Translations under genes and position numbers: made by a program
In this document: positions 12,297 to 46,978 of the stretch, piece after piece
How the letters are laid out: each line of letters opens with the position of its first letter
Numbering within the stretch: the first letter of the stretch is position 1
Notes under the pieces: model-generated
The model's input: the letters and a program-made list of their open reading frames with translations, nothing else
What the model was told of the DNA's origin: nothing
Database searches by the model: none
Source of the DNA: a virus
Taxonomy: Duplodnaviria > Heunggongvirae > Uroviricota > Caudoviricetes
DNA: 64,000 nucleotides
Virus record (IMG/VR): IMGVR_UViG_3300042895_002216
Strand: one strand, 5' to 3'

Positions 12297-14567
12297 ATGT
12301 CATACGTAGTTTCGTCCCAACAGTTTTTTGAATCGTTATCGACTTCAGGAAACTCTACTGATAAGCTGACCCAATACTTTAATCAAATACCTGCTGCCTT
12401 TTTTGAGGCTCTAGATAAAGTTGATTTTAGTATTTTGGCAACGCCAGTTACAATCAAAAGAAAACATTCTGAATCAGAAGTTTTTGCTCACCAAGTATAC
12501 TTATTTGAGAATTTTGAAGATATTCAAGATATTATTCGAAAGGAAGATTTTTTAGCTCGAGCTGGATATGATACGATTGAATTAAGAATCAATGAATCTT
12601 ATTTAGAAACAATTGAAACTCTTAACGAGGGTCTATTAGGGTCTATTGGAGACTTCTTAGCTAGCCTAGTAAGTGATCCGGATCCAGTAGAAATGGGTCT
12701 TAATATCTTACGTCTTGTGCTGGATATTATTGGACTTGTGCCATTCACATGGGTAGGTTTTCCTATTGATATTGTTGCAAACGTTCTATCTGCTCTAATT
12801 TCATTGTATAAAGGGGAGTACGTCTCAATGGTATTAAGCCTTCTTTCAGCAATTGATATTACTCAAGCCTCTGATGTATTGAAGATAGTACTAAAACCAG
12901 CAATGCCGTTATTGGAAAAAATTCTACCTCTCATATTTAGATCTGGGAAGGACGTTGTTGCTCTAGAAAAAGGAGTAATTGCACTAAAAGATGGAATTAT
13001 CCGAATCGGCGGAAAGAGTTTATTAGACAATGTGATTAGCTTATTTAAAGGACTTGCTAAGTTTTTCCTAAACACCGCAGTCTCAGTAGTTAGAATGATC
13101 GCCGGGTTTATGGATACTGCGATTAATCTTGCAACCTTTGGTATGGCTGGAAAATTTGGATTTAAAATTTCAAAATTAGTAGACTCTATTGTAGTGAACG
13201 TCTCGATGATTGGTAGAAATTTCGATACAGCTACTCAAATTCTTACAAAGCCTGGAGTAGGAAAAGAAATTGCTCAAAGTGCGGATGACTTGGCTAAAGC
13301 TGCTCGTAAAGAAGTTGCCCTAGGTGCTCAAGATCAAGCTCTTAAAGCTGGAAAAACTTCATCTGAAGTCGGAGCAGATATCAGTGCAGCACTTAAAGAC
13401 TTTGATGCAACTCAAGCAGATAAGTACATTAGAGCTAGAGGAGGTTACTTAAGTGATCTAAAGCAGACAGTTACTTCAAATACGAAATTCATGGATTCAA
13501 TTAGCCAATTATCTTCCAAGCAGAAAGACATTGCGATCGCTGCAAAAATGGAAAATGAATTAATTGGACAAGCTAAACTGTCAGTTGATAGGATAATGAA
13601 AGATCCTGAGGCAGTTAAACTGTTAGGTGCAGCCGGCTGGAGACCAGGTGGAGATCACTTAATTAGATTAGCTAGAGGAGGAAACCCTCAAGAAGTTAAG
13701 AAATTCTTTGAAGTGTTCTTAACTAATCCAGCAATAGCTAAGAACTTATCTAAATCTGAAATTAGAGCATTTGCACCGTTTGTTGCTAAGCCGGAAGCAT
13801 TCATCGAGGGAGTTGCTAAATTTAATGGTAGCGTTAAGACTCTTGAAATTCTCACAAAGAAAGGCGGCGCTATTGGAATGAGAGCCGTACCTTTCAAGCG
13901 AGTTCTTAACCTGGTAGCTAGATTAGTTTGGCAAAAATACGGATCACTTGAATGTATTATCCAAGCCGGCGCAAATAAAGCAGGAGATGTAGCTCTTGGC
14001 GCAACTTCATCGTTAGTTAGAACAGGAATATCTGCATTGGAAGAAGCAGAAGAAAGTTCAAACCCACAAAGGACTGTCGCAAAGGTAGATTGCGGATTAC
14101 AGGCGGCGGCTGTTCAAGCAACAACCGGCTCATTCGTTGCAGATTTTCCAGGAAGTACTGCAAATTTAGGAGGAACTGCTAACATGGGAGAAGATCCTGC
14201 ACAAGCAGCTGAATTCCAAAAGAAGAGCACAGACTACTCAAAACAGGTACTAGCTTCACTAGGATTAGATACATCAATTGATGTTCAACATGCTCTTGAC
14301 TATAATGAGCCTGTCGTCCAAGCCTATTTCGCAGATGTTTACGATCCTGAATCTGGAGTAATTAATGTAAATCTAGTCGATAAGTCTCGGTTAGACAGCA
14401 CCATTCAAGAGATGGTTCGTATGGGAAAAATCCGACCGGAAGAGGCTGCTGGTATAAAAGCAGAAGCCTTGAAACTTATTCAATCGGGCGAAGAACCTGA
14501 AATTAAGTTACCTCCAGTAAACGAAGGGCTCTTCTCAGTTAAAGGCCTTTCATTCGGAAATAAATAA
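12297..14567 (+). CDS. Large late protein with capsid-targeting-like N-terminus and pre-toxin-TG-like motif
   Basis: ATAAATAA at 12267; internal INE/LNE/VNE motifs; LDIIGLVP...KGEYVSMVLSLLSA. Confidence 0.7.
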   Translation: MSYVVSSQQFFESLSTSGNSTDKLTQYFNQIPAAFFEALDKVDFSILATPVTIKRKHSESEVFAHQVYLFENFEDIQDIIRKEDFLARAGYDTIELRINESYLETIETLNEGLLGSIGDFLASLVSDPDPVEMGLNILRLVLDIIGLVPFTWVGFPIDIVANVLSALISLYKGEYVSMVLSLLSAIDITQASDVLKIVLKPAMPLLEKILPLIFRSGKDVVALEKGVIALKDGIIRIGGKSLLDNVISLFKGLAKFFLNTAVSVVRMIAGFMDTAINLATFGMAGKFGFKISKLVDSIVVNVSMIGRNFDTATQILTKPGVGKEIAQSADDLAKAARKEVALGAQDQALKAGKTSSEVGADISAALKDFDATQADKYIRARGGYLSDLKQTVTSNTKFMDSISQLSSKQKDIAIAAKMENELIGQAKLSVDRIMKDPEAVKLLGAAGWRPGGDHLIRLARGGNPQEVKKFFEVFLTNPAIAKNLSKSEIRAFAPFVAKPEAFIEGVAKFNGSVKTLEILTKKGGAIGMRAVPFKRVLNLVARLVWQKYGSLECIIQAGANKAGDVALGATSSLVRTGISALEEAEESSNPQRTVAKVDCGLQAAAVQATTGSFVADFPGSTANLGGTANMGEDPAQAAEFQKKSTDYSKQVLASLGLDTSIDVQHALDYNEPVVQAYFADVYDPESGVINVNLVDKSRLDSTIQEMVRMGKIRPEEAAGIKAEALKLIQSGEEPEIKLPPVNEGLFSVKGLSFGNK

Positions 14568-14588
14568 TTAAAATAATAACAGAAACAA

Positions 14589-15593
14589 ATGACCTTTGTT
14601 AAAACATTTGAAAGCTTTAGAGCAACTTCGTTAACTGAAGCAGTCGATAAAGCAAACATAACTAAGATTTCACCAGAAGCCGGCGAACTTGCTAGATGGA
14701 AAGTTGTACTAAAGAGTGGATCTGCTGATTCAATCAGCAATGCAACACCAATTCAGTCGATTATCGACAGTTTAGTAATGAACGGCGATTTTAAAAATTG
14801 GTGGACTACTACTAAATTTGAAGGAACTCCTGCGAGCATGACCCTTGGTATTGTGTACAGTGGAGTTATGAACAAGACGAATTTAGTTGGAAAAGAGGTA
14901 GCTAAAGCTGAAATTGCCTTTGTTACGTATAGAAGACAACACACAGGCGAATCTGCTGGAGTTGACAAACCTGCAGCCGACGTATTCTATGATGTAACTA
15001 AAGCTGAACCAATCGCAACCGCGACCGTTTCAGGTTCAAAGATTCCGTTAGCTGTATGGCATCAAGAAAAATTAATTGATATTAAGTTGGCGCAGCCAGT
15101 ACCAGCAAGGGATAAATCGGGCAAGCTTATTGAAATCGATAAAGTTTATCCGTCTTACATGAAAAGCGAAGGCCAATCAGCTACTGATAAACCTACGACT
15201 ACTGATACAACGACAGTTTCACCTACTACTTCTACACAAACGGTCGACTCGCCACAAGGCTCTCAATCGAACTCAACTACCTTCGTTGATCTTAAGAAAG
15301 CCCCAGGATTTAATCAAAAGGTTCAAGATCTACAGAAGAAGATCAAGACACTAGGCGGAGACGCAGCAACGGCTCTTGGTAAATTCGGAGCAGACGGTAA
15401 ATATGGAAGCGGTACAGCTAATGCAATTGGAAAACTTGTAAATAACGGTACTCCAGTTGACTCAATTAATGCAGAGATTTCTGCTAAATTAGATGCAGCC
15501 TTTGTGAACTTAACTCAAGCTCAAATCGATGCAGCTAATAAGAAAGTAGAAAAGCCAGTCGACCGTAAAGTTCAAAGGCCTAGTCCATTTTAA
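14589..15593 (+). CDS. Putative internal virion protein with C-terminal peptidoglycan-binding domain
   Basis: MTFVKTFESF...LTEA N-terminus; VQDLQ...GADGKYGSGTANAI motif; late promoter at 14560. Confidence 0.7.
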   Translation: MTFVKTFESFRATSLTEAVDKANITKISPEAGELARWKVVLKSGSADSISNATPIQSIIDSLVMNGDFKNWWTTTKFEGTPASMTLGIVYSGVMNKTNLVGKEVAKAEIAFVTYRRQHTGESAGVDKPAADVFYDVTKAEPIATATVSGSKIPLAVWHQEKLIDIKLAQPVPARDKSGKLIEIDKVYPSYMKSEGQSATDKPTTTDTTTVSPTTSTQTVDSPQGSQSNSTTFVDLKKAPGFNQKVQDLQKKIKTLGGDAATALGKFGADGKYGSGTANAIGKLVNNGTPVDSINAEISAKLDAAFVNLTQAQIDAANKKVEKPVDRKVQRPSPF

Positions 15594-15617
15594 TAAAAAA
15601 TAAATATACTACAACAA

Positions 15618-16616
15618 ATGAATATTTCAAATTACGCGCTTATTTTAGAGAAAAAGTCTCATGGCTACTTACTGGTCAATGAGGCCGCTGATATGCAAAC
15701 AGCTGACGGTTTAACTAAACTATTATCTGGTCAAAATGGAGGACCTTATGCAAACCAATGGAACCAATTCATGGATGAAGTTGAATCAAAGAAGGCAGCT
15801 GGTAACTATACGTTCATGGTTAAACACGATAACGGAAAAGACATGATTAACGTCGCTTATCAAATCGGAACAGACTTAAAGCCAGTAAAAGGAAGTCTTA
15901 AGCTAGCAGCGGCAACCTCGTCGTCTCCAGTTTCCGGCTCATCTATTGACATTAATAAGATTGCCGAATATGACCCAAAGGGTAAAATGTATGAATTTAT
16001 TGCTGCATTAATCACAATATCGATTCAAAAATTCGGAAAGGCATGGACTCCTGATCATATTAAATGGGTTACTGCTCAAACCAATAAGGTTAAAGCATTA
16101 GGCGGCTCCTTCGCAGGAATCGAAAAAGCAGCAAATGCCAGCTTTTTACTAGGTGACGGTAATATCGCAGACAATTGGATTAAGCTGACCGGTGGAGATT
16201 TACCTACACAAGTAACCACAATTACCTCAAAATACAAGAAAGCCGGCTCAGTTGAGTCAGATGCTGATATTAAGATGATCATGGACGCAGTTGATCTTAA
16301 GCTAAATGAGACAGTTACATCATTTGCTGATAGTGCAGCTATGCACGGTTTGTACATGCTAATTTCACCAAAATTCTCCGCTGATCAACTTGCCAAGATG
16401 TGGACAGCGTCCGGTAAATCTGGCGGTTTTTTAACAGGTATTGCTGGGGAAATCGACGAGATTATGGGTACTACCCAAAAATGGCCTGAAAAATTTGCGG
16501 CCTGGACAGTTGGAATAAGAGGTCTCACGCTTTGGTCCGGTTTTTACACAGCATACAGATTCGATACGGTCACGTATACTGAGAGTATCGCAGCAATAAA
16601 GGCAGCTTTAGTATAA
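15618..16616 (+). CDS. Putative internal virion protein
   Basis: 332 aa; LLVNEA near the N-terminus. Confidence 0.65.
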   Translation: MNISNYALILEKKSHGYLLVNEAADMQTADGLTKLLSGQNGGPYANQWNQFMDEVESKKAAGNYTFMVKHDNGKDMINVAYQIGTDLKPVKGSLKLAAATSSSPVSGSSIDINKIAEYDPKGKMYEFIAALITISIQKFGKAWTPDHIKWVTAQTNKVKALGGSFAGIEKAANASFLLGDGNIADNWIKLTGGDLPTQVTTITSKYKKAGSVESDADIKMIMDAVDLKLNETVTSFADSAAMHGLYMLISPKFSADQLAKMWTASGKSGGFLTGIAGEIDEIMGTTQKWPEKFAAWTVGIRGLTLWSGFYTAYRFDTVTYTESIAAIKAALV

Positions 16617-16623
16617 TAACTAA

Positions 16624-17094
16624 ATGAAGATTAAAGCATTCTCTGAATTCTTAGCTGAGTCATCAGCTGGCCACGATACGGCCGGTGTAGCAATATTATA
16701 CAATCAAAAAATTTTACTAGTTCATCCAACTAATGGAAGTTGGGTTAGACCAATCATGGGAATTCCAAAGGGCAAGGTCGAAGCTGGCGAAGACCTAATG
16801 AATGCTGCTCTACGAGAACTTAGCGAAGAGACAGGAATCTATCTTTCTCCAGATAAATTAGAATTGCCCGTGCAGACAGTTGAAGTTTACGATAAAGACG
16901 GCAAGTACAAGAATGCACTACACTATTTCGTTTTCCGAATTGAGGATCTATCTGAGATTGAGCTGGAGTCATTAACTATTCCAAAGAGCCAACTTCAGGC
17001 AGAAGAGATTGACTGGGCCGGATTCATCGATATCAAAGAGGCTTACTCAAAAGTTTCGCGAGCCCAACTTATAATTTTAGACAGACTTTCCTAA
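16624..17094 (+). CDS. Nudix hydrolase with capsid-targeting-like N-terminus
   Basis: Nudix box GKVEAGEDLMNAALRELSEETG; N-terminus MKIKAFSEFLAES. Confidence 0.9.
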   Translation: MKIKAFSEFLAESSAGHDTAGVAILYNQKILLVHPTNGSWVRPIMGIPKGKVEAGEDLMNAALRELSEETGIYLSPDKLELPVQTVEVYDKDGKYKNALHYFVFRIEDLSEIELESLTIPKSQLQAEEIDWAGFIDIKEAYSKVSRAQLIILDRLS

Positions 17095-17147
17095 AACTAG
17101 TTCAAGTTTCCTAGTAGAATAATAATCTAAACAATATCTTTATTCAA

Positions 17148-17714: not shown

Positions 17715-17732
17715 TAATTTATAAATTTTATG

Positions 17733-20649: not shown

Positions 20650-21240
20650 ATGATTAAGACCTTTAAAACTTTTACAAATGAAGCACTTAGTCCAGCTATT
20701 TTAACTAGTTCAATTAATGAGTGTACAGCTAATCAACTTAAGAGTATTTCTGAATTTAAAAGTACTTATAAAACTGAGTTAGATAAAGCAAATAAGATTG
20801 TTAACGTATACCAGGTAATTGATAAATTTAGTACCTGGCTAGTTGGTAAAACTCCAGCAATGGTCCAAGCTGCTCTATTAAATTCGCCAGGAACTGCTGA
20901 TAAACTGGTAATTGAGGCATATACTTTCATTTATATGGAAATACAAAATCAATTAAAGTCAATTGGTACACTTAAAAAATCAGCACTTAAATTACTGGCT
21001 CCATCCGCTGCTGACTTTGATTCGCAAAAAACTGACTCAGACTTAGTGAATCAAATTATACAATTAGTGGAATCGTTATTTGATGTAGGCTTTATGATTG
21101 GTTACAAATTTGACAGTAAGTCAATTGAGGCAAATAATGCTTCAAACTGGTCAGTTTCTTTTACCAAATCTCTTAATTCTAGGAAATCTTTAATATTCAA
21201 AAATATTAAACTATTAATTCGTAACTTTTTATATAACTAA
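20650..21240 (+). CDS. Putative internal virion protein
   Basis: N-terminus MIKTFKTFTNEA. Confidence 0.65.
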   Translation: MIKTFKTFTNEALSPAILTSSINECTANQLKSISEFKSTYKTELDKANKIVNVYQVIDKFSTWLVGKTPAMVQAALLNSPGTADKLVIEAYTFIYMEIQNQLKSIGTLKKSALKLLAPSAADFDSQKTDSDLVNQIIQLVESLFDVGFMIGYKFDSKSIEANNASNWSVSFTKSLNSRKSLIFKNIKLLIRNFLYN

Positions 21241-25394: not shown

Positions 25395-25871
25395 TTACTG
25401 TTTAGCAGCTGCTTGATTAGATCTCATCGATAACCTTTTACCAGGAGACTCAAAACTAGATTTTACAGGATTGGCTTGCATAATTTTATTATCCTTTACC
25501 TCTTTGTCCTTCTTGAATACTTTATCGCCATTCATTTTCTTGGTCTTCTTCTTTTCGTTAAGATCAGAACCTTCTGCATACTGAGCCAATAGAGTATCAG
25601 CTTCATCTGCGAATTCTTCAGCAATTGCCTCTCCCATTTCGTCATTAATCATAACAATTAAGTCATTCTCAAGGTCTGTTAATCGGGTAGCAGTGCCGTA
25701 TTTTTCAGAGTAAGGGTCAATATCAATGCCTGCTGAGCTGTATTGATTCGCCAATTCAATTAATTCTCTAGCCGTTTCGTGATAGAATCGGTCTGACTTC
25801 ATATCCGCTTTTTGGTGAAAATCGTCAAAGCTTTCTTCGAAACTTTCAAATAGTGCAACGTATCGTTTCAT
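25395..25871 (-). CDS. Putative internal virion protein
   Basis: MKRYVALFESFEES N-terminus; late promoter at 25899-25906. Confidence 0.7.
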   Translation of the reverse strand: MKRYVALFESFEESFDDFHQKADMKSDRFYHETARELIELANQYSSAGIDIDPYSEKYGTATRLTDLENDLIVMINDEMGEAIAEEFADEADTLLAQYAEGSDLNEKKKTKKMNGDKVFKKDKEVKDNKIMQANPVKSSFESPGKRLSMRSNQAAAKQ

Positions 25872-29461: not shown

Positions 29462-29821
29462 ATGGAATCTATGATACTAGTAAAATTTAGAGACATTGAC
29501 CCAGATACTGGATCAATTAGTCAAGAAGGAACCGTTGCAACGTGTGCGGATGAACAATTAGCTAACTGGGTTAAGTCTGCTCTTGGGAGAGATAACGCTG
29601 AGAACGGCGATCCTAATCGTGAATTCTATTTAGACGATCAAGCGAATCGCGAAGCTACATACGAAGAGAGAGTTGCATGGTTCGTTGCAAACTATTACGA
29701 AACTGGAATGGAGTATGATGCTCTGCTTGAATCAATGAAAGAGGTTAACCTTGACTCATTCGAATGGTATGATGAAACGATAAGTATTCCAACTCACTTT
29801 AAGAATTACCGCTTAAATTAA
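29462..29821 (+). CDS. Hypothetical protein
   Basis: 119 aa, acidic. Confidence 0.6.
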   Translation: MESMILVKFRDIDPDTGSISQEGTVATCADEQLANWVKSALGRDNAENGDPNREFYLDDQANREATYEERVAWFVANYYETGMEYDALLESMKEVNLDSFEWYDETISIPTHFKNYRLN

Positions 29822-31071: not shown

Positions 31072-31426
31072 TATCTGAAGTGCTGATTTTTGTAGTATCC
31101 TCATTGAATTTCTGAATAGCTATTGCTGTTTCTGGTCCAAAATAACCATCAACTCCGTGTTCAGGTAATTCGTAACCTAAGAACTCTAGCGCTGCTTGAA
31201 TGTCTTCTACTAATTTAGAATAGGTATAGGTTCCGCCGTTTTGGACAGCTACTGATTTTCCAGAATTTGCAAAATCCTCCAATGTAGCATAGAACGCTTC
31301 GACCTTATCGTCTAGGAGTGTGCCGTCTTCTTTTTTCTGAGCAGAGGTCTCTTCCTTCTTGCCGGTAAGCCAGTCCCAAAAACCCTCATTTGTTTTTTCT
31401 GTGAATTGATTAAAATTATGAATCAT
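31061..31426 (-). CDS. Peptidoglycan-binding protein with capsid-targeting-like N-terminus
   Basis: IQAALEFLGY...GVDGYFGPETAIAIQKF; late promoter at 31465. Confidence 0.8.
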   Translation of the reverse strand: MIHNFNQFTEKTNEGFWDWLTGKKEETSAQKKEDGTLLDDKVEAFYATLEDFANSGKSVAVQNGGTYTYSKLVEDIQAALEFLGYELPEHGVDGYFGPETAIAIQKFNEDTTKISTSDNGK

Positions 31427-31477: not shown

Positions 31478-32233
31478 ATGAGTGAGAAAATAAAGAGAGT
31501 AGAGTTAAACGGATTTAGGTATTACGAAGTATCTGACTCATCTGGGATAATTGGCACATTCCCAAGCGTCACTTCAGTTCTTGGAGAAACCTCCGATAAG
31601 ACAGGTCTTGATGCTTGGCGAAACCGGGTAGGACATGAGGCAGCTGATCGAATAGGTCGAGATGCCGCCAATCGCGGAACGGTCATGCACAGGTTGTGTG
31701 AACTCTATTTAAGTTTGCCCGCGTCTATGAAACCCAAGGATCGATTAGAAGAGTGTCTTTTGCTATCTAGGTTAGACGATGAAATTGACGAGTTTGACAG
31801 TAGAGCCAAAATTGTGGGTGGAATGTTATTCTACAACTTCGTTAAGTCAAACTCATTCGATGAAATAAAGAGAGTAATTGCACAAGAAAGATTTCTATGG
31901 ACTCCAAGAGACGGCGGTTATGCTGGCACAGTCGATAATGTTTCTGAGTTAATAACTAATGACGTTGCAATAGTTGATTTTAAAACAGCGCGTAAACCCA
32001 AGGAAGAGAAATGGATTGAGGATTACAAGCATCAGGTCGCTGCGTATTCAGTTGCCGTTTGGGATAGAATGCAGATCAAAGCTGTTACTTGCCGAATTTG
32101 GATCTCAAACGAAATGCACCTTCAACCCCAGTACTTTAGAATGGACCAGGTCGAAATGCGTGAGTACTATTATAAATTCAGAGAAAGATTAGCTGACTTT
32201 TATAAAAAGAATCCTCCTATTACAATTCAATAG
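31478..32233 (+). CDS. PD-(D/E)XK exonuclease
   Basis: PSVTSVL, RGTVMH and YAGTVD...IVDFKT motifs. Confidence 0.85.
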   Translation: MSEKIKRVELNGFRYYEVSDSSGIIGTFPSVTSVLGETSDKTGLDAWRNRVGHEAADRIGRDAANRGTVMHRLCELYLSLPASMKPKDRLEECLLLSRLDDEIDEFDSRAKIVGGMLFYNFVKSNSFDEIKRVIAQERFLWTPRDGGYAGTVDNVSELITNDVAIVDFKTARKPKEEKWIEDYKHQVAAYSVAVWDRMQIKAVTCRIWISNEMHLQPQYFRMDQVEMREYYYKFRERLADFYKKNPPITIQ

Positions 32234-34190
32234 GCTGACCTGATACTTTACGTAAAAGATCTAATCTAACTGGTGTAGGTCGAGTAGCTCCACCGAATGT
32301 ATTTAAGTAGATAAATGGCTGATTTGCTGTATTTCGGGTAGTGTAATCGCAACTAGCAAAGATTCCCCAATTATTCATGTGATTAGCGATATAGTAACGG
32401 TCTCCTGCTCTAGCTCTTAATTTATCTTCCTCAGTTACTGTTTCCAATTCGTATGCCATCAGTCCAAGACCAGCAAATGGTCTTTCGATAATATGGCCAG
32501 TTACAACGTTTATTAATTTAGCATCGTAACCAGTGCGGTTCAATAGGTCGTCAACTGAATCTACTGGACGAATTGATCTTCCTGCTCTACTGAATGCTAC
32601 ATAAACTGGGATACCAAAAGATGATCTAAACGCTTCTCTCTCTTGAGGACCTAGTACAATGAACTTAGCAAAGTCGCCGGTTCTAATCTTTTTCAATAAG
32701 TCAAGTTCCGGTAAGAGTCCACGTGCTTCAACTCGACGTTTAAGATCAGATCCGCTCTGTGGCATTTCCGCAAATACTCCAGGTCGAGTAGCTCGTTCTG
32801 CATTTTGAGTACGTTCAGCTTCTCTTCTAGTAATAGCAGCCTGTCTTTCAGTTTCTCGACGTCTTTCAATTTCCTCAGGATCAATGAATGATCTCATGTA
32901 CTCTTGTTCAACTGTTGATAAATTAACACGACTAAGATCCGGAATTGCTTCTGGGATTACTTTAATCCATTGTGATTTATCGGTAGTCGTTCTAGTATCT
33001 CCAGCATTTCCTGGCTCAAGGTTACCATTGTCAATCTGTATAGCATTAGAAATTGAGGCAGCGACATACGAACCATTTCTATCTAAAATAACTCGTCGAA
33101 TTGGTAGAGACGAATATGATGCATCGTATAAGTAGCTCTTAACTACGATAAAGTCTCCAACGTTCCATTCAGCATCAGGATCTGCTCCGTATTGTGTAAT
33201 TCGGTCAGCTAGTCTTTGACGAGTTGCTGCCTCTTCACGAGTTCTACGTTCAGCTGCTTCAACTCTTTCACGTTCTCTTTGTTCTTCTTCTCTTCGTTGA
33301 GCCTCAGTTCGTGCAGCCAAGATAGCCTGAACTCTTTCAGGTGTTAATCGATTATCCGTAACTAATGAATTAAGATAATCTCTATTTAATAGAACTAGTG
33401 ATTCATCGGGTAAAATTGCAAGTAATTCATCGTCCATATCAAAACGATCAGGCTTTGTTTTATCTCTACCAATTACTCTTTCAATAAATCTGTTAGCCAC
33501 ATCAATTTTTGCAGCGGTTGACATGGATTTATCCATTGCCATCCAGTTGCCTGCGCCGATAATTGCGTGAGCATCATCTTCTGATGGAGAGCCATCTGGG
33601 TTGGATTTGTAAGTCAACATTGATCCCCATGCTTTATCCTTCTCAGTAGTACCAGATGGATTAGACGAAATATAGTCTGCGTATTTTAATAGAGTTCGGT
33701 ACATTTTATAACCCAAACCAGCTCCTCTTAATCCGCTTGGAATACCTCCATTTGGAAAGTGGCTTCGTTGAAAATCCGAAGGTCCTTCAGTACGAAAGTG
33801 AATTGCATTATCGTCTCCTGGGTAAACGTCTCTCCATCTTCCGAATTCATTAGCGAATCGGCTAGCGTCAACATTTTTAAGTTCAGCCATTAAGTCAACG
33901 ATAGGTTGTGGAAATTTAGGGTAATAATCTCTGGAGTTTGAAGGTTTTTCCATTGTAATATCCAATCGTCGAACTCCCTTAAGGGCTCTAACTAGATCTA
34001 CTGAAATTTCCGCAAACGATCGGGTCTCTGGCCTGTTTGCTAATTGTTGATTTCTGTCAATTGTTGATTGTCTAACTCTACCCATGTGACTTTGAGCAAG
34101 TCTCTCTGGTCGTTTAACTCCCATTTCGCCAACCAGGCCGTCTTGATTAAAAGCGGACTCGTTAACTATGTCTCTTAAGGAATTTATCAT
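32220..34190 (-). CDS. Large late protein with GNAT-like motif and coiled coil
   Basis: LRGAGLGYKMY acetyl-CoA-binding-like motif; N-terminus MINSLRDIVNES; late promoter at 34214; minus strand (track label is wrong). Confidence 0.7.
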   Translation of the reverse strand: MINSLRDIVNESAFNQDGLVGEMGVKRPERLAQSHMGRVRQSTIDRNQQLANRPETRSFAEISVDLVRALKGVRRLDITMEKPSNSRDYYPKFPQPIVDLMAELKNVDASRFANEFGRWRDVYPGDDNAIHFRTEGPSDFQRSHFPNGGIPSGLRGAGLGYKMYRTLLKYADYISSNPSGTTEKDKAWGSMLTYKSNPDGSPSEDDAHAIIGAGNWMAMDKSMSTAAKIDVANRFIERVIGRDKTKPDRFDMDDELLAILPDESLVLLNRDYLNSLVTDNRLTPERVQAILAARTEAQRREEEQRERERVEAAERRTREEAATRQRLADRITQYGADPDAEWNVGDFIVVKSYLYDASYSSLPIRRVILDRNGSYVAASISNAIQIDNGNLEPGNAGDTRTTTDKSQWIKVIPEAIPDLSRVNLSTVEQEYMRSFIDPEEIERRRETERQAAITRREAERTQNAERATRPGVFAEMPQSGSDLKRRVEARGLLPELDLLKKIRTGDFAKFIVLGPQEREAFRSSFGIPVYVAFSRAGRSIRPVDSVDDLLNRTGYDAKLINVVTGHIIERPFAGLGLMAYELETVTEEDKLRARAGDRYYIANHMNNWGIFASCDYTTRNTANQPFIYLNTFGGATRPTPVRLDLLRKVSGQPIEL

Positions 34191-36572: not shown

Positions 36573-37370
36573 TTAGTTGACGTAATCTTGAAGTGCCACT
36601 TCAAGTGTGTCTGTGTTCTCAAGTTCTGACGATTGCTCGTCATAGTATTCGTTATATCGTTTCTCTAAAATTGCAGAAGCTTCACCGTATCCTAAATTCT
36701 CTAGGATTCGGATAGCTAACCAGTCAGCTTCTCTCTCCTGTCTCTCGTCGTAAGCTGCCATTCCTCGGTCAGAGCCTCCGTGATTTAGTAGTGAATGCGA
36801 AATTTCATGTGCTTCGATTGCCAACAGATGGTCGTCTCCTAGATTCTGAGACTCAACTTCCTGTCCATCGACGAATATTGTTTTTGAAACCATATCAGCG
36901 AAAGCAATTCCTAAGCTATCAAATATTTTTGCAACTTTTGCATAGAGCTCATCGTCCGAGAAAAGAACAATGACTGTCCATTCGGGATCAATTTCGCTTT
37001 TCCAAACCGCATCCTCTGCGCTTTCAGATAAGTTATACTTCTTCATTTTTGAAGCACGTTGACCAGTTAAGTCTCTCCATAATTCTCTGACGTCTGGCTG
37101 GGCAAGTGTATCTGCCTGAACCATTGAGTAAAATTGATTATCTGAATTCTGCATCATTGCGAACCATTCTTCAAGGCTAGGTTTTTTAGACAGAGCCTCA
37201 ATTCGAGGTTTTAGTCTTCTAAACATTGGAAATAGCTCAGTTTCGTACTTATCTCCAGTTTGTGGATTACGTCCGAATTTTCTGTTAATATCAAGTTCCG
37301 TTAACTTCCTTAGGGGTCTTGGATTATGATTTTCATTTAACCAATCGCTATATGTTGATAAAAGTTTCAT
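36573..37370 (-). CDS. HExxH metallopeptidase with capsid-targeting-like N-terminus
   Basis: AHEISH...EREAD; MKLLSTYSDWLNEN; late promoter at 37378. Confidence 0.75.
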   Translation of the reverse strand: MKLLSTYSDWLNENHNPRPLRKLTELDINRKFGRNPQTGDKYETELFPMFRRLKPRIEALSKKPSLEEWFAMMQNSDNQFYSMVQADTLAQPDVRELWRDLTGQRASKMKKYNLSESAEDAVWKSEIDPEWTVIVLFSDDELYAKVAKIFDSLGIAFADMVSKTIFVDGQEVESQNLGDDHLLAIEAHEISHSLLNHGGSDRGMAAYDERQEREADWLAIRILENLGYGEASAILEKRYNEYYDEQSSELENTDTLEVALQDYVN

Positions 37371-37421: not shown

Positions 37422-37883
37422 ATGATTCATAAATATCAACAATGGCTTGATGAATCTGAGAAACTAGAGGCAGTTGATACGCCGGTAACACCAGACGCTC
37501 CAGTTGAAGCTCCAGCAGAAGTTCCAGCGGAACCGGTTGCAGAAGTTCCAGCTGAGACTCCAGTTGATGCCGGGATTCCAGCAGAGGCTCCGGTTGAAGA
37601 CGACACAGCCGAATCAGAAATTGAAAAGTATCAAGAACTAGACACAGCTAGAAGAGATGCAATTAAAGCCTTTAAAAAGAAACAAGAAGAATTTTTAGAA
37701 ATTCCTAATGAGATTCGTAAGAGTCCAGTCGAAGAGGCTGATAAAACAAAGGTCGAGACATTAAAGAGCGAATTAGTTGAACTTAATAAGACAATGAAAG
37801 ACTCTATTAAAGCTTGGGACAACTTTAATTCTGAAGCCTTAGGGTTAGCAGATGATGAGACCTCTGAAGAGTACGAACCTTAA
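37422..37883 (+). CDS. Putative internal virion protein with P/A/E repeats
   Basis: MIHKYQQWLDES; late promoter at 37397. Confidence 0.7.
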   Translation: MIHKYQQWLDESEKLEAVDTPVTPDAPVEAPAEVPAEPVAEVPAETPVDAGIPAEAPVEDDTAESEIEKYQELDTARRDAIKAFKKKQEEFLEIPNEIRKSPVEEADKTKVETLKSELVELNKTMKDSIKAWDNFNSEALGLADDETSEEYEP

Positions 37884-37903: not shown

Positions 37904-38092
37904 ATGAAAAATTTAGTTAACAGTTTTACGAAATTCGTAAACGAGAGCTGGGATCCAAGTGATGCTTTCTCTGGTGAGACTTCAAACTGTTGCGGTGCTC
38001 CTATTATGATGGGCGATATTTGCTCTGATTGTAAAGAACATTGTGAAGCAGAAGAAGACGAAGAAGATTACGAAGACGATTATCAACACTAA
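37904..38092 (+). CDS. Small Zn-finger protein with capsid-targeting-like N-terminus
   Basis: MKNLVNSFTKFVNES; SNCCGA...ICSDCKEHC. Confidence 0.7.
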   Translation: MKNLVNSFTKFVNESWDPSDAFSGETSNCCGAPIMMGDICSDCKEHCEAEEDEEDYEDDYQH

Positions 38093-42198: not shown

Positions 42199-43818
42199 TT
42201 AAAATATCGGGCATGCAGTAGAGCTTCCACCTTTATACATTGGTACTTTAGGTAAAGCGGTTCCGAATTGAATTCTAGGTAACTCAATTTGGAATGATTC
42301 ATCAGACCATGTAATTACTGAGTTCCATTCTCCACTAGGAGTTGCAGTTGACTTAACTGGAGTAGGTTCGGTTGATGTGATTGTATACGTTAACTGGAAG
42401 AACGCAACTGCATATCTCCATGGTCCGTAAGTTGCTTGGTACTCTGGAGTTCTTGCTCCAGGTTTACCCCACTTAGCATCAGTTTTATCTTTATCAGTCC
42501 AGTCAGGACCTCTATTCGGTTCAGCTAAATTTTTAGCATCAACGGTTGGTGCAATAGTTATTCCGTTTTCAGTAAGAGCGGCAGCTAGCGCGCTATTAAT
42601 AGACGCAAGTCTATCGTTTGCTAACGCAACGTTATTTTCCTTCTTTGAGGTTTTATCAGCTGACTTGTAAGTCGTTCCTACTTGTGAAGTACTTGCATAA
42701 CCCCAAGTTGAAACAGCTGTAATTGTACCGCCGGCTGCTTTAACTGCATCTACTGCAGATTTAACAGTTGCGGCTAATTCAGCTTGAGCAGTAGGTTGAA
42801 TAGTCACTCCATCATCTGGAAATAACTGTAAACCCTTTTGGAAAGCTGGGCTCTTAGCGTTACCGTTTGCACTTTCAGGATATGAAAAAGCCTGAACAAC
42901 TGGGGCAGCTGGTGCAGCTGGTGTTCCAGCGACAACTGTAATTTTTTCGTTCTTTGGTGCAATGTATAAATTCGTAGCAACTAAAATTGCTTTATCGAAA
43001 GTTACATTAGGATCCTTTTTACGAGCAGCATACGCTTCAGCTTTTGCTTTAAAGTTATCTAGCATAGACTTCTTTTCAGTATCGCTTAACGACATTGAGG
43101 CTATCCAGTATTGACTGACTGTTGCTTTATTGGTTCTCTGTGCAATCAGGAATTTAGCAGAAGTTAAAGGATCTACCATTAATTCCTTGCTTGCATTAGT
43201 ATTTAATCGGTAAGCAGTTAGTGCTTTCTTAAGAGTATCCATGACCTGAGGCTTGGCTAGTTCAGCAATCACATCAATTTTTTTACCGCCAGTATCGAAT
43301 ACTCCATCAGTTAGAGCACCTGGTATAATTGAACCGAATAGAGCTGATGTTCTTAATTCGAAACCTTCAGTCTTTGCAGTCTTTAATAAGTCAACCGCTT
43401 GTTTAAGTTGAGCTAGCTTTTCTGGAGTTACCCCAGCCTTTGCACCGTTTGCAATAATTGAATCTGCTACTTTATAAAACATATCTGCTCTAGGAGCTGC
43501 ACCCTTAACCGTACCGCCGCCTGTCCAGTAATATATCGATTTTAGGGAACGTAATCTGTCAGTTTTAGCAGATGAACTCTTTTTAAGAAGCGATTTGAAT
43601 AAGTTGAGGTCGCCCTCTCCGTTTTTCCACCATTGCATTACAGATTCGTAAGCTGGGTGAGCTTTTATTTCAGCAGAGTCTGCTGCCATTGCTGCATTTA
43701 CTAAACCTGCACGATCGCCAGCTTTGTAAAGAGCACCAATATCAGTTCCTTCAGCTTCTGCGATTAACAAGTTTTCGTTTAACCAGCTAGAGTAGCCTTT
43801 AATAATTGAATGTTTCAT
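42199..43818 (-). CDS. Putative internal virion protein with OmpA-like C-terminal fold
   Basis: MKHSIIKGYSSWLNEN; GYAS...NNVALANDRLASI motif. Confidence 0.65.
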   Translation of the reverse strand: MKHSIIKGYSSWLNENLLIAEAEGTDIGALYKAGDRAGLVNAAMAADSAEIKAHPAYESVMQWWKNGEGDLNLFKSLLKKSSSAKTDRLRSLKSIYYWTGGGTVKGAAPRADMFYKVADSIIANGAKAGVTPEKLAQLKQAVDLLKTAKTEGFELRTSALFGSIIPGALTDGVFDTGGKKIDVIAELAKPQVMDTLKKALTAYRLNTNASKELMVDPLTSAKFLIAQRTNKATVSQYWIASMSLSDTEKKSMLDNFKAKAEAYAARKKDPNVTFDKAILVATNLYIAPKNEKITVVAGTPAAPAAPVVQAFSYPESANGNAKSPAFQKGLQLFPDDGVTIQPTAQAELAATVKSAVDAVKAAGGTITAVSTWGYASTSQVGTTYKSADKTSKKENNVALANDRLASINSALAAALTENGITIAPTVDAKNLAEPNRGPDWTDKDKTDAKWGKPGARTPEYQATYGPWRYAVAFFQLTYTITSTEPTPVKSTATPSGEWNSVITWSDESFQIELPRIQFGTALPKVPMYKGGSSTACPIF

Positions 43819-44478: not shown

Positions 44479-45732
44479 TTATTTAGCGGCTGCTGCAGTT
44501 AAAGTAAGTTTCAATTCAAAGAATTGAGCTTTTCCTCTAACGTTAGTAGTTGCATTTCCAGTTGAAACAGCAGTAGTCTTAGTAGTTTCTACAGCTTTAG
44601 GCTTAACTGCATTTTTTTCAATGTTTAGGTCAACGAAACGGTCAGCTGCATTTGCAGGTTGACCACTTGCACCGATTGACCATGCAACTTCGTATGCATC
44701 AAAACCTGGATGTCCTTTTGCTTTAAGTCCAGAGTTAAGAGCATTCATGAAAGCAACACCACGACGGTAAGCAAGATCTTGATTTTTAGTTGCATCATCC
44801 TTTGGAGTTACTGCACCAGTTCCGTCAGCCTTAGGCATTTGTTTACCGTTCCATTCAGTACTTGCACCAGAAGTTAAAGTAAATTTATCAGGGCGTGATC
44901 CTGCTGGGAATTTAGCTAAACATAACTCTACTGCTTTTGCAACCTCAGCTTGAATAGCTGGAGTAACTTGGTCAGAACCAGCTGCGAATTCTGCAGCGAA
45001 TTTGCCAGTAACTGCATCGGAACCTCCAGTTTGAGCAACGTCTACTTTAAGATCCTTACCTGCAGCAAGGTCGCCAAGTAATTGTTGAGTGTACAAATAT
45101 AGATTGTCAGCGTCTACTACTGGAGTAGTTGTAATATCTAGGTAACCGTCTTCTCCCATTCTTTGGCTCAAGATGAATTGACCTTGACCCATTTCAAATG
45201 CATTTTGGTTATATGCGTTAACAAATCCCAACAACATACCTGTACTAGAGGTTGCTTTACTCCAACGTGGATCAGTATCAATTTCCAGTGAATTAATCCC
45301 AATTCGACCCTGAGTCATGATTCTACCTGTACCGTCAGCTCCAGGATTGTAGTCCACCGTTGTTTTGCTGTAGGCAATTTTTGATTGACCTGCAATCAAA
45401 CTATCAAGAGTAGCGGTAACTACTTCGTCTAGGCTCTTACCGCCAAAGATTCCCAAGAAACCTTTTTTAGCCGTTTGGCCGTGTTTAGCAAGGCTTCCCA
45501 AAATTTCTTGATGAGCCTCTTTCTTTTTAATGTTTTGGATGTTAGACTTTGCAACCTCTTGCGTGAATAGTCTAAATTGTGCTCCAGCTTGACTTGCGAT
45601 GTACTGATCGTATTTTGCCTCGTCAATGCTAAAGTCATCAGTACTGAGAGTAACTGAATCGATTGACCAGTTTTCGTTTATAGCGTTTAGGTTTTCGTTT
45701 AACCATTGGCTATAGCCTTTAATTAAGTTCAT
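44479..45732 (-). CDS. Putative internal virion protein with OmpA-like C-terminal fold
   Basis: MNLIKGYSQWLNEN; FAAGSD...SGAS...NQDLAYRRG motif; late promoter at 45754. Confidence 0.65.
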   Translation of the reverse strand: MNLIKGYSQWLNENLNAINENWSIDSVTLSTDDFSIDEAKYDQYIASQAGAQFRLFTQEVAKSNIQNIKKKEAHQEILGSLAKHGQTAKKGFLGIFGGKSLDEVVTATLDSLIAGQSKIAYSKTTVDYNPGADGTGRIMTQGRIGINSLEIDTDPRWSKATSSTGMLLGFVNAYNQNAFEMGQGQFILSQRMGEDGYLDITTTPVVDADNLYLYTQQLLGDLAAGKDLKVDVAQTGGSDAVTGKFAAEFAAGSDQVTPAIQAEVAKAVELCLAKFPAGSRPDKFTLTSGASTEWNGKQMPKADGTGAVTPKDDATKNQDLAYRRGVAFMNALNSGLKAKGHPGFDAYEVAWSIGASGQPANAADRFVDLNIEKNAVKPKAVETTKTTAVSTGNATTNVRGKAQFFELKLTLTAAAAK

Positions 45733-46378: not shown

Positions 46379-46402
46379 CACAACACTTAGCCCAAAACAA
46401 AG

Positions 46403-46432
46403 AAAGGGGATCCTCAGAAGGGATCCCTTTTT
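46403..46432. terminator. Terminator (twin of 60053-60083)
   Basis: GGGATCC TCAGAAG GGATCCC TTTTT. Confidence 0.8.
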
Positions 46433-46546
46433 GGGGTATATAGATAACTTCATGAAAACGGTATATGTGTGGCTGGGGGTTACCCTGTGGTTCCTAGCTA
46501 TTATAGTCTACTCCGGATTGAAGAGGATAGAACGTAGAGGTTAAGG

Positions 46547-46978
46547 TTATCTTAAGAGATCCAGTCGGGGTACAGATCGCCCGCTGGGTACTTCCCGCCA
46601 GGTCTTGTCTCCCAATTCCCAAATAAGATCTACATCGTGTTCTTTAGCTAGATTCATGATAAACCCGTCAACAAACTCAACATCTCCAGGCTCGTCGGCC
46701 TTGACCATGCGAATAAGTTCAGCCGGTGGATACTCGTACCAAGAGTCCTCACCGTCAGCATTGGGAGCCGGATAGGCCTCCATGAACCAACACTTCATAA
46801 AGGTTTCTAGATTACCGGAAAAATCCTTTCGACCAATCTTTTCCCAGTCTACCCGGACTATCAGCACACGAAACCCAGGAATGGGAATCCCCAGCCTATG
46901 GAGTTCCATCTGATCGGTGTAATTCTGAGCCGACTCAGTTAGCGCAAATCCATTGAAATCGGTAATATAATTCTGCAT
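46547..46978 (-). CDS. Putative internal virion protein
   Basis: MQNYITDFNGFALTES; late promoter at 46983; minus strand (track label is wrong). Confidence 0.7.
   Translation of the reverse strand: MQNYITDFNGFALTESAQNYTDQMELHRLGIPIPGFRVLIVRVDWEKIGRKDFSGNLETFMKCWFMEAYPAPNADGEDSWYEYPPAELIRMVKADEPGDVEFVDGFIMNLAKEHDVDLIWELGDKTWREVPSGRSVPRLDLLR

What the first reader, a model, noticed from the sequence alone, without database searches (positions are those of the whole stretch)
12297..46978. About 15 proteins share a T4-internal-protein-like capsid-targeting N-terminus
Seen N-termini: MSYVVSSQQFFES (12297), MTFVKTFESF..LTE (14589), MKIKAFSEFLAE (16624), MIKTFKTFTNE (20650), MKRYVALFESFEE (25871), MENKILNFKQFLTE (31071), MIHNFNQFTE (31426), MINSLRDIVNE (34190), MKLLSTYSDWLNE (37370), MIHKYQQWLDE (37422), MKNLVNSFTKFVNE (37904), MKHSIIKGYSSWLNE (43818), MNLIKGYSQWLNE (45732), MQNYITDFNGFALTE (46978), and more weakly 15618. 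Most follow an ATAAATAA promoter. Known: T4 IPII/IPIII carry the targeting peptide MKTYQEFIAE, removed by gp21 after Glu. Inference: a large injected payload (Nudix, GNAT-like protein, metallopeptidase, wall hydrolase, OmpA-like proteins) addressed by one portable tag.
Basis: partly seen in the sequence, partly recalled or inferred. Interest (0 to 1): 0.8.

Follow-up and report, generated by a model that had tools for sequence, protein, structure and literature searches.

The report
T4-style capsid-loading tag on many proteins
Twelve unrelated proteins in this stretch of an uncultured 271-kb phage (37 in the whole genome) start with a short helical tag that matches, residue for residue, the signal phage T4 uses to load proteins into its head and then cut them free, so the phage probably packs a large kit of enzymes and cell-wall binders into its particle, although no experiment has shown this.

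Summary
All 15 N-termini are at the stated coordinates. Twelve fit one motif, [ILV]-K-x-[FY]-x-x-[FW]-[LVI]-x-E. One (34190) is an aliphatic look-alike, and two (12297, 15618) do not fit. Genome-wide, 37 of 316 ORFs carry the tag (46-fold N-terminal enrichment, p 4e-20).

- **Portability:** the tagged proteins are unrelated to one another beyond the tag. Codon use shows that selection acts on the peptide.
- **Conservation:** orthologues keep the tag down to 43% identity.
- **Match to T4:** the conserved positions are the four shown by T4 mutagenesis to direct targeting (residues 4 and 7) and cleavage (8 and 10). A matrix built from this phage ranks T4 ipIII, ipII and ipI at 3, 4 and 7 of 260 T4 ORFs.
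- **Machinery:** the phage encodes gp21-type protease, gp23-type capsid, gp20-type portal and a weak gp55-like match.
- **Timing:** 31 of 37 tagged genes lie behind late-type promoters and 3 behind early-type ones.
- **Scaffold link:** the protease's scaffold-like tail holds ten 14-residue repeats in the tag's register.
- **Cargo here:** Nudix, VanY peptidase, PG_binding_1 and two OmpA-like proteins. No GNAT was found.

Packaging, cleavage and injection remain untested. The scan has flagged this tag before, in another window of this genome and in other jumbo phages.

The parts
14589..15593 (+). Tagged gene, 334 aa, MTFVKTFESF..SLTE; body of unknown function (weak peptidoglycan-binding lead only)
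   Evidence: Matrix score 16.1, ATAAATAA at -29. No Pfam or PHROG family. The Atlas lead to PG_binding_1 scores 0.86, below a reliable level.
16624..17094 (+). Tagged Nudix hydrolase, 156 aa, MKIKAFSEFLAE
   Evidence: Pfam NUDIX E 8.9e-15 from residue 18. Score 20.3; TAGTATAAT early-type box at -15 and late-promoter genes upstream. 92 of the 120 nearest homologues carry the tag, with a variable linker.
20650..21240 (+). Tagged gene, 196 aa, MIKTFKTFTNE; unknown function
   Evidence: Score 19.6, no promoter of its own. No family found.
25395..25871 (-). Tagged gene, 158 aa, MKRYVALFESFEE; unknown function
   Evidence: Score 13.2, ATAAATAA at -35. Only a sub-threshold HTH_19 match.
29818..31071 (-). 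Tagged VanY/M15-type peptidoglycan peptidase, 417 aa, MENKILNFKQFLTE
   Evidence: Pfam VanY E 1.3e-12. Score 21.4. The start at 31071 is chosen over 31104 because it puts the tag at the N-terminus; this is an inference.
31061..31426 (-). Tagged PG_binding_1 protein, 121 aa, MIHNFNQFTE; overlaps the VanY gene by 11 nt
   Evidence: Pfam PG_binding_1 E 1.2e-6. Score 17.4, ATAAATAA at -46.
36573..37370 (-). Tagged gene, 265 aa, MKLLSTYSDWLNE; possible metallopeptidase
   Evidence: Score 16.6, ATAAATAA at -15. Peptidase_M78 E 0.002, below cut-off. phrog_87 metallo-protease E 2.6e-4.
37422..37883 (+). Tagged gene, 153 aa, MIHKYQQWLDE; acidic, Pro/Ala/Glu-rich start of the body
   Evidence: Score 19.2, ATAAATAA at -25, divergent from the 37370 gene. 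pI 4.1.
37904..38092 (+). Tagged gene, 62 aa, MKNLVNSFTKFVNE
   Evidence: Score 17.0; second gene of the 37422 unit.
42199..43818 (-). Tagged gene, 539 aa, MKHSIIKGYSSWLNE followed by LLIAE; C-terminal OmpA-like fold
   Evidence: Score 21.3, ATAAATAA at -38. Tag kept in 27 of 29 listed homologues, down to 43% identity; the other two are one fragment and one with a degraded tag. AF2 pLDDT 78.5. All top PDB matches are OmpA/Pal/MotB peptidoglycan-binding domains, best E 7e-3. No Pfam match.
44479..45732 (-). Tagged gene, 417 aa, MNLIKGYSQWLNE followed by AINE; C-terminal OmpA-like fold
   Evidence: Score 24.2, ATAAATAA at -29. Tag kept in all full-length homologues down to 43% identity while its letters drift. 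In the AF2 model the tag is helix 2-14, followed by coil. OmpA-like PDB matches, best E 0.014.
46547..46978 (-). Tagged gene, 143 aa, MQNYITDFNGFALTE (weakest clear member)
   Evidence: Score 7.6, ATAAATAA at -12. No family.
32220..34190 (-). Borderline: 656 aa, MINSLRDIVNE; aliphatic hydrophobic-x-x-hydrophobic-hydrophobic-x-E pattern, as in T4 gp24 MAKINELLRE
   Evidence: Score 1.5, ATAAATAA at -31. T4 gp24 N-terminus read. No family.
12297..14567 (+).
   Evidence: Score -0.5, ATAAATAA at -30.
15618..16616 (+).
   Evidence: Score -0.6.

Best explanation
The shared N-terminus is a T4-type capsid-targeting propeptide.

**Setting.** The phage is a 271-kb relative of the T4 superfamily, and its host is probably in Bacteroidota. 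It makes the tagged proteins mainly late in infection.

**Proposed mechanism.**
1. The 10-14 residue amphipathic helix has hydrophobic residues at -3, 0, +3 and +4, with aromatics at 0 and +3. It docks the protein into the scaffolding core of the assembling prohead.
2. The core is built by the C-terminal part of the protease protein, which consists of 14-residue repeats in the same register as the tag.
3. When the shell closes, the gp21-family protease cuts after the Glu at +6 ([LVI]-x-E). Often it also cuts at a second [LIV]-x-E a few residues further on.
4. This cut destroys the scaffold and frees the cargo inside the head.
5. The cargo leaves with the DNA at the next infection.

**Cargo in this window.** A Nudix hydrolase, a VanY-type wall peptidase, a PG_binding_1 protein, two OmpA-like wall binders, a possible metallopeptidase and six proteins of unknown function.

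**Shown here.** The motif and its enrichment; its portability; peptide-level selection; conservation in orthologues; its match to T4's functionally mapped residues; the protease, capsid and portal homologues (with a weak gp55-like match); the bias to late promoters; and the scaffold repeats.

**Inferred.** Binding to the core, cleavage, residence in the virion and ejection.
For: 1. **Enrichment.** The motif is 46-fold enriched at N-termini, p 4e-20, against a shuffle mean of 0.46. It heads 37 of 316 ORFs.
2. **Portability.** The bodies of the 40 tagged or claimed proteins give no BLAST hit to each other at E 1e-3.
3. **Peptide-level selection.** Synonymous codons inside the tag mostly follow genome usage (F TTT/TTC 0.61/0.39 against 0.62/0.38; Leu codons mixed; K, N and Ser codons depart). 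So selection is on the peptide.
4. **Conservation.** The 417-aa and 539-aa families keep the pattern down to 43% identity while the letters change (GYSQWLNE, LFESWLQS, NFERFVNE). 92 of the 120 nearest Nudix homologues are tagged, with variable linkers.
5. **Match to T4 genetics.** In the T4 IPIII tag, residues 4 and 7 direct targeting and residues 8 and 10 direct processing; Asp at 10 blocks cleavage but not targeting (PMC9026906). These map onto positions 0, +3, +4 and +6. Positions 0, +3 and +6 are among the most conserved here. Position +4 is hydrophobic (L/V/I) in 22 of 37 but carries little information. Positions 0 and +3 were used to anchor the alignment.
6. **Cross-prediction.** The matrix from this phage ranks T4 ipIII, ipII and ipI at 3, 4 and 7 of 260 T4 ORFs, hypergeometric p 1.2e-5. 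The T4 gp23 maturation site reads FGSFLTE then AEIGG, in the same register.
7. **Machinery.** Peptidase_S77 at genome 100066-101904, directly followed by a Gp23-family capsid gene. BLAST to T4 gp20, gp21, gp23 and (weakly, E 1e-3) gp55.
8. **Timing.** Two promoter words emerge de novo: ATAAATAA before structural genes and TAGTATAAT before replication genes. By nearest promoter, tagged genes are 31 late and 3 early, untagged 112 late and 93 early; odds ratio 8.6, p 2e-5.
9. **Scaffold link.** The protease tail holds ten 14-aa repeats I-x-Y-S-[ED]-Y-[LVI]-[AG]-E-[NK]. It contains 8 of the 32 internal hits to [FYW]xx[FYW][LIVM]xE in the whole genome, where 0.2 are expected. 108 of 150 representative homologues have 6 or more units of this pattern, with modal consensus YSEY[LI]AEN. 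Compare T4 YQEFIAE.
10. **Capsid propeptide.** It has INE-16, VLE-23 and INE-53, and the commonest tag ending is [LVI]-N-E.
11. **Cultured relatives.** Sphingomonas phage PAU has 19 ORFs starting MKT[LI]..L[YF]E, 13 of them in the 100-114 kb head module around the protease, scaffold and capsid genes. In Chryseobacterium phage MA9V-1 the tags (MKNFFSFINE) match a site in the capsid propeptide (RWSEFINE followed by AAP).
12. **Structure.** The tag is predicted as a separate N-terminal helix followed by coil.
13. **No other route to the wall.** Five wall-directed proteins (VanY, PG_binding_1, two OmpA-like, plus the GH24 lysozyme noted earlier by the scan) lack any signal peptide. Delivery from the virion would give them access to the wall.
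Against: - No direct evidence places any tagged protein in a virion or shows it cleaved. No relative has published virion proteomics.
- Thirty-seven cargo species is far more than T4's handful.
- Three tagged genes sit behind early-type promoters, including the Nudix gene with its own TAGTATAAT box, and one (genome 122012) lies in a replication-type operon.
- 15 of 37 tags lack Glu at +6. Three have Asp, which in T4 blocks cleavage.
- A VanY peptidase could simply be the endolysin, which needs no delivery.
- T4 gene 61.1, in an early region and not known to be packaged, also starts MKTFKEFIKE, so the motif alone does not prove packaging.
- Depletion of [LI]-x-E inside tagged bodies is only marginal: observed/expected 0.96 against 1.15 in other proteins.
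- Calling ATAAATAA 'late' and TAGTATAAT 'early' is inferred from the genes that follow them, not measured.
Confidence: 0.65

Rival explanations
1. The tag does take proteins into the prohead core and is cut. But most tagged proteins are core or scaffold-type assembly components that are degraded or expelled at maturation. They are not a payload delivered to the next host.
For: - Several tagged proteins outside the window are small, very acidic or repetitive, like T4 core proteins: pI 4.1-4.4 for many.
- Genome 103709 is a basic repeat protein right after the capsid gene.
- Genome 106055 has a perfect internal tag between a basic and a very acidic half.
Against: - Folded enzymes and binding domains (Nudix, VanY, PG_binding_1, OmpA-like) make poor scaffolds.
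- Their tags sit at the extreme N-terminus with a linker, as in the T4 internal proteins, which stay in the head.
Confidence: 0.12
2. The helix is a general-purpose N-terminal address for something other than the capsid. Candidates are transient membrane association, hand-over to the phage's own GroEL/GroES, or docking to another late structure.
For: - The tag is a short amphipathic helix.
- The genome encodes GroEL-like and GroES-like genes at 136433 and 122577, judged from their N-termini.
- A paper title cited (Snyder and Tarkowski 2005) reports that the T4 gp23 N-terminus directs proteins to GroEL.
Against: - The conserved Glu in [LVI]-x-E, the second [LIV]-x-E just downstream, the same motif in the protease's own repeats and in capsid propeptides of relatives, and the head-module clustering in PAU all point to the head protease.
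- The tag has no hydrophobic core long enough for Sec or Tat export.
Confidence: 0.1
3. The shared start has no function as a peptide. It is either a nucleotide-level feature (a translation-initiation region rich in A/T codons) or a relic of a promoter-plus-leader cassette copied in front of many genes.
For: - Many tagged genes share the ATAAATAA box at a similar distance.
- The tag is rich in Lys, Ile, Phe and Asn codons.
Against: - Synonymous codons vary freely at conserved residues.
- Orthologues at 43-50% identity change the letters but keep the hydrophobic/Glu pattern.
- 17 tagged genes have no promoter box of their own.
Confidence: 0.03

Closest known systems
Phage T4 capsid targeting sequence (CTS) of internal proteins IPI, IPII and IPIII, and the short propeptides of Alt and gp24, removed by gp21 (Mullaney and Black 1996; review PMC9026906)
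   Same: - N-terminal, about 10 residues, portable between unrelated bodies.
- Aromatic residues three apart for targeting, then [LIV]-x-E for cleavage.
- MKTYQEFIAE fits this phage's motif in register, and the phage has gp21-, gp23- and gp20-family genes and a weak gp55-like match.
   Different: - Here the tag is about three residues longer at the front ([ILV]-K-x before the first aromatic).
- It heads 37 genes (12% of ORFs) instead of a handful, and sits on recognisable enzymes and wall-binding domains.
- The host is probably Bacteroidota, and the scaffold is fused to the protease and made of tag-like repeats. T4 gp22 shows one such site only.
- No experiment exists.
CTS-like ORFs in the variable internal-protein loci of T-even phages (mentioned in PMC9026906, section 3.1)
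   Same: The idea that a conserved CTS lets a phage swap in different head-packaged proteins.
   Different: Those are a few small basic proteins in one locus of close T4 relatives. Here the tagged genes are spread over the genome of a distant jumbo phage and include enzymes.
Propeptides of ejection and inner-body proteins in phiKZ, 201phi2-1 and SPN3US (PMC5694885, PMC10052503)
   Same: Jumbo phages with a gp21-related protease that cuts many head proteins after Glu. Dozens of proteins are packaged and ejected.
   Different: Those propeptides are mostly over 100 residues, are not one shared short tag, and the cleavage motif is S/A-x-E. Here there is one 10-14 residue consensus ending [LVI]-x-E.
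Ejection proteins of T7 (gp14/15/16) and P22 (gp7/16/20) that form a trans-envelope conduit (PMC8402733 for P22; T7 from general knowledge)
   Same: Virion-internal proteins that act in the periplasm at infection. This gives a rationale for tagged wall hydrolases and wall binders that have no signal peptide.
   Different: No shared cleavable tag is known for them. No homology to the proteins here was seen.

Membership tests
T4-type capsid targeting sequence (CTS) propeptide | Located at the extreme N-terminus, about 10-20 residues, in front of an otherwise independent protein | tested here: met
   First aromatic at residues 5-8 in 32 of 37 tags. The Nudix domain starts at residue 18 and VanY at 38. 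In the AF2 model, helix 2-14 is followed by coil.
T4-type capsid targeting sequence (CTS) propeptide | Targeting determinants: the residues equivalent to T4 IPIII positions 4 and 7 (Tyr, Phe) | tested here: met
   Positions 0 and +3 are F/Y (37 of 37) and F/W/Y (36 of 37). They were used as the alignment anchor, so their conservation is partly by construction. The strict pattern is still 46-fold enriched at N-termini.
T4-type capsid targeting sequence (CTS) propeptide | Processing determinants: L/I-x-E, cleaved after Glu (T4 positions 8 and 10) | tested here: inconclusive
   Sequence requirement: +4 is L/V/I in 22 of 37 and +6 is Glu in 22 of 37; three have Asp, and the others often have a Glu site slightly downstream. 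Cleavage itself could not be tested.
T4-type capsid targeting sequence (CTS) propeptide | A gp21-family prohead protease and a gp23-family shell encoded by the same phage | tested here: met
   PF03420 38 bits and PF07068 E 3e-41, in adjacent genes. BLAST to T4 gp21, gp23 and gp20.
T4-type capsid targeting sequence (CTS) propeptide | Portability: the same tag on unrelated proteins | tested here: met
   No pairwise BLAST hit among 40 bodies. Different Pfam families.
T4-type capsid targeting sequence (CTS) propeptide | Tagged proteins are found inside virions with the tag removed | not testable with these tools
   The phage is uncultured. The nearest cultured relatives have no virion mass spectrometry in the library.
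T4-type capsid targeting sequence (CTS) propeptide | Made when proheads assemble (late expression) | tested here: inconclusive
   31 of 37 lie behind ATAAATAA-type boxes shared with structural genes, 3 behind TAGTATAAT boxes. Promoter classes are inferred from sequence only.
Sec/Tat signal peptide (considered for the wall-directed proteins) | Hydrophobic core of about 10 or more residues after a basic N-region | tested here: not met
   The tags have alternating polar and hydrophobic residues and end in Glu. True signal peptides elsewhere in this genome look quite different, for example MKKIIFILFALVTCALSTGVYAQ.
OmpA-like peptidoglycan-binding domain (for 42199-43818 and 44479-45732) | OmpA_C fold and sequence family match | tested here: inconclusive
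   The top Foldseek PDB hits are nearly all OmpA/Pal/MotB domains (probability up to 1.0, TM by target up to about 0.6), but E is only 7e-3 to 1.4e-2. No Pfam hit. The two families share only an N..LA..R core.
NUDIX hydrolase (16624-17094) | Pfam PF00293 above the gathering score | tested here: met
   55.3 bits against a cut-off of 21.1.

The most novel reading that the evidence does not exclude
The tag works because it is a single copy of the scaffold's own repeat. In this large clade of T4-related jumbo phages the protease carries a tail of 6-18 units of Y-S-E-Y-[LI]-A-E-N.

- Cargo proteins bearing one such unit co-assemble with the scaffold. The same protease cut that dissolves the scaffold releases them.
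- If so, the ejected proteome of any uncultured member could be read from sequence alone.
- Here that proteome would be about 37 proteins. They would include a Nudix enzyme, wall hydrolases and OmpA-like anchors, which may pin an ejection conduit to the peptidoglycan.
Probability: 0.35. Interest if true: 0.8.

Novelty: new variant of a known kind. Interest (0 to 1): 0.6.

Why it matters
What a phage injects besides DNA is usually learned only by proteomics of cultured phages. A short tag that can be read in the sequence would identify the protein payload of uncultured jumbo phages directly.

It would point to candidate first-minute effectors: anti-defence enzymes, wall-breaching proteins and wall-anchoring proteins.

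It would extend the T4 capsid-loading principle, already used to package foreign proteins, to Bacteroidota phages.

The resemblance between the tag and the scaffold repeats also offers a testable answer to a question left open in T4, namely what the CTS actually binds.

Tried and rejected
- **Complex prediction.** The tag-bearing first 36 residues of the 417-aa protein were folded against the scaffold repeat region (residues 232-400 of the protease ORF). The tool returned no answer, score 0.00, so it counts neither way.
- **DNA and protein searches in cultured phages.** Megablast of window 12297-20000 against cultured phages found no match. tblastn of the 417-aa protein against cultured phages found no match.
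- **Family searches.** PHROGs found nothing for 9 of the 10 window cargo proteins submitted. The Atlas search gave nothing usable for 20650-21240 and only a sub-threshold PG_binding lead for 14589-15593.
- **GNAT.** No GNAT-like protein was found.
- **Literature.** No published virion proteomics exists for PAU, MA9V-1 or pT24. MA9V-1 has an SDS gel only. No paper in the held library describes CTS-like tags outside T-even phages.
- **Motif depletion.** Depletion of [LI]-x-E inside cargo bodies was too weak to use.
- **T4 controls.** T4 gp22 does not show the tandem motif. The matrix also ranks T4 Soc first, a false positive, and 61.1 second.
- **Rejected explanation.** A nucleotide-level or cassette origin of the tag was rejected on codon evidence.

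Full report
**What the window is.** The window is bases 201691-265690 of a 270,962-bp virus record with direct terminal repeats, rated complete.

- The genome encodes a Gp23-family major capsid protein and, directly upstream, a Peptidase_S77 (T4 gp21-type) prohead protease. It also has BLAST-detectable homologues of T4 gp20 and, weakly (E 1e-3), gp55.
- The nearest capsid proteins belong to uncultured huge phages and Lak megaphages. More distant ones are Tenacibaculum phage pT24, Flavobacterium phage MaF61, Sphingomonas phage PAU and Chryseobacterium phage MA9V-1.
- Signal peptides of the Bacteroidota type elsewhere in the genome suggest the host phylum. That is an inference.

- Aligned on the first aromatic residue, the motif is [ILV]-K-x-[FY]-x-x-[FW]-[LVI]-x-E.
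- A strict regular expression finds it at 20 N-termini and only 8 internal positions in the whole proteome. That is 46-fold per position, p 4e-20; residue-shuffled proteins give 0.46 hits on average.
- With a crude ATG-only ORF call of 316 genes, 37 carry the tag. The score distribution is bimodal.
- In the window, 12 of the 15 claimed genes are clear members. 34190 (MINSLRDIVNE) fits only an aliphatic version of the pattern, like T4 gp24 MAKINELLRE. 12297 and 15618 are not members.
- Ten of the 15 have ATAAATAA within 70 nt upstream.
- MaF61 has no ORF reaching the score threshold, and pT24 and MA9V-1 have three each. So the abundance is a property of this genome, not of phage N-termini in general.

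**It is a peptide signal and it is portable.**

- The bodies behind the tags have no detectable similarity to one another.
- Codons at the conserved residues mostly follow genome-wide usage (Phe TTT/TTC 0.61/0.39 against 0.62/0.38; mixed Leu codons; K, N and Ser codons depart somewhat). This excludes a nucleotide-level element or a recently copied cassette.
- Orthologues of the 417-aa and 539-aa proteins keep the pattern down to 43% identity while the actual letters change.
- The Nudix protein belongs to a metagenomic family in which 92 of the 120 nearest members are tagged. The linker between tag and catalytic domain varies in length and sequence.

**Match to the T4 capsid-targeting sequence.**

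- T4 ipII and ipIII start MKTYQEFIAE and ipI starts MKTFKEF...ITE. These were read from the T4 record, and the genes are annotated as internal virion proteins.
- According to the review PMC9026906, the first ten residues of IPIII suffice for packaging. Targeting depends mainly on residues 4 and 7, and processing on residues 8 and 10. Asp at 10 blocks cleavage but not targeting. gp21 cuts after Glu in L/I-x-E.
- Those four residues are positions 0, +3, +4 and +6 of the motif here. Positions 0, +3 and +6 are among the most conserved; +4 is hydrophobic in 22 of 37 but carries little information.
- A matrix built only from this phage's tags ranks ipIII, ipII and ipI at 3, 4 and 7 among 260 T4 ORFs, p 1.2e-5.
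- The T4 gp23 maturation site is FGSFLTE followed by AEIGG, in the same register. That gp23 is cut after residue 65 is textbook knowledge.

**Timing.** An unbiased 8-mer search of upstream regions gives two words.

- ATAAATAA, often [GA]ATAAATAAC, lies in front of capsid, sheath and other large structural genes.
- TAGTATAAT lies in front of topoisomerase, recombinase, chaperonin and nucleotide-metabolism genes.
- Each gene was assigned to the nearest same-strand box. Tagged genes are 31 late, 3 early and 3 unassigned; untagged genes are 112, 93 and 74. The odds ratio is 8.6, p 2e-5.
- The exceptions are the Nudix gene (own early-type box, plus late genes upstream), 20650, and a gene at genome 122012.

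**Link to the head machinery.**

- The protease ORF continues for about 450 residues beyond the S77 domain. Residues about 256-395 are ten 14-residue repeats, I-x-Y-S-[ED]-Y-[LVI]-[AG]-E-[NK].
- The generic pattern [FYW]xx[FYW][LIVM]xE occurs internally 32 times in the whole proteome. Eight of these are in this one protein, where 0.2 are expected. The repeats are not independent events.
- An exhaustive search found 3475 homologues. Of the 150 best representatives, 108 have six or more units of this pattern. The commonest consensus is YSEY[LI]AEN, close to T4's YQEFIAE.
- Their N-termini carry an L-I-L-E type site, like LIE-9 of T4 gp21.
- The capsid propeptide here has INE-16, VLE-23 and INE-53, and [LVI]-N-E is the commonest tag ending.
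- In PAU, 19 ORFs start MKT[LI]..L[YF]E. Thirteen of them lie in the 100-114 kb block that holds protease, scaffold and capsid genes, and the PAU protease ends with ...KKLYESIKSK.
- In MA9V-1 the tags (MKNFFSFINE, MKTFTCFINE) match a site in the capsid propeptide, RWSEFINE followed by AAP.
- Next to a divergent protease in a 381-kb contig, most neighbouring genes have [IV]-N-E within their first 10-25 residues, and one has a perfect tag.
- The scan had noted the tag-scaffold resemblance in other genomes. I found it independently here.

**Cargo in the window.**

- Nudix hydrolase (16624), VanY/M15 peptidase (31071) and PG_binding_1 (31426) are supported by Pfam.
- The 539-aa and 417-aa proteins end in an OmpA/Pal/MotB-like fold in AlphaFold models with pLDDT about 79. 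The top PDB matches are nearly all of that family, but with weak E-values.
- A possible metallopeptidase at 37370 is weak.
- The rest have no family, and no GNAT was found.
- Four wall-directed proteins here have no signal peptide. That is what one would expect if they reach the wall from the virion. A lysis role for the peptidase cannot be excluded.

**What remains open.**

- Nothing here shows packaging, cleavage or ejection.
- A complex prediction of tag against scaffold repeats gave no answer.
- T4 61.1, an unstudied gene in an early region, also carries a CTS-like start. So the motif alone is not proof.
- I put the capsid-targeting reading at about 0.65. The main rivals are a core-component role without delivery (0.12), another docking role for the helix (0.10), and a non-peptide origin (0.03).

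**Novelty.**

- The principle is known from T4, and CTS-like ORFs are known in T-even internal-protein loci.
- I found no paper describing such tags in jumbo phages outside that group.
- The scale (12% of genes), the enzyme cargo, the extended consensus and the scaffold made of tag-like repeats make it a new variant of a known kind.
- The scan has already reported the same tag in another window of this genome (e1-1682135, e1-1682136) and in other jumbo phages. This window adds members and tests rather than a first sighting.

Noticed in passing
genome 100066-101904 (outside the window; L010:1067-2902): The prohead protease ORF has a long tail with ten 14-residue repeats I-x-Y-S-[ED]-Y-[LVI]-[AG]-E-[NK], conserved across more than 100 representative homologues. 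Homologues start about 50 residues upstream of the ATG used here, so the real start is probably a non-ATG codon.
   Followed up: yes
genome 106055-106708 and 64279-65247 (outside the window): There are perfect tag copies inside proteins. IKRFEQFVNE at residue 105 lies between a basic and a very acidic half, and two copies lie in a 322-aa late protein. They may be internal cleavage sites of core proteins.
   Followed up: partly
genome 103709-104074 (outside the window): A tagged 121-aa protein directly after the capsid gene is very basic (pI 10.3) and made of LPKGKG-type repeats. This is reminiscent of the small basic T4 internal proteins.
   Followed up: no
window 29818-31426, minus strand: The PG_binding_1 gene and the VanY peptidase gene overlap by 11 nt, and each has its own tag. 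They look like the two halves of a common endolysin architecture, split and tagged separately.
   Followed up: partly
window 37371-37421: A 51-nt intergenic region holds two ATAAATAA boxes in opposite orientation (at 37385 and 37397), driving two divergent tagged genes.
   Followed up: no
window 40581-41543, minus strand: An untagged late gene starts MSKVRILSIDGGGLRG, which looks like the glycine-rich loop of patatin-like phospholipases. This was not tested against a family library.
   Followed up: no
whole genome: A second promoter-like word, TTTAGTATAAT (32 sites), precedes replication and nucleotide-metabolism genes. It is probably the early or host-type promoter of this phage.
   Followed up: partly
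T4 record NC_000866, 18966-19130 minus strand (L014): T4 gene 61.1 (54 aa, hypothetical) starts MKTFKEFIKE, a near copy of the T4 capsid-targeting sequence, although it lies in an early region.
   Followed up: no
window 46001-48000 and 60001-62000: Two GC-rich islands (0.49 and 0.52 against about 0.38 elsewhere). Other notes of the scan place tRNA-like elements near 62011-62303.
   Followed up: no
L071:12068-13480 (381-kb metagenomic phage contig): Next to a related protease, a RimK/ATP-grasp protein and an ADP-ribosyltransferase-like gene sit among genes whose N-termini carry [IV]-N-E sites. These are further candidate packaged enzymes in a relative.
   Followed up: no
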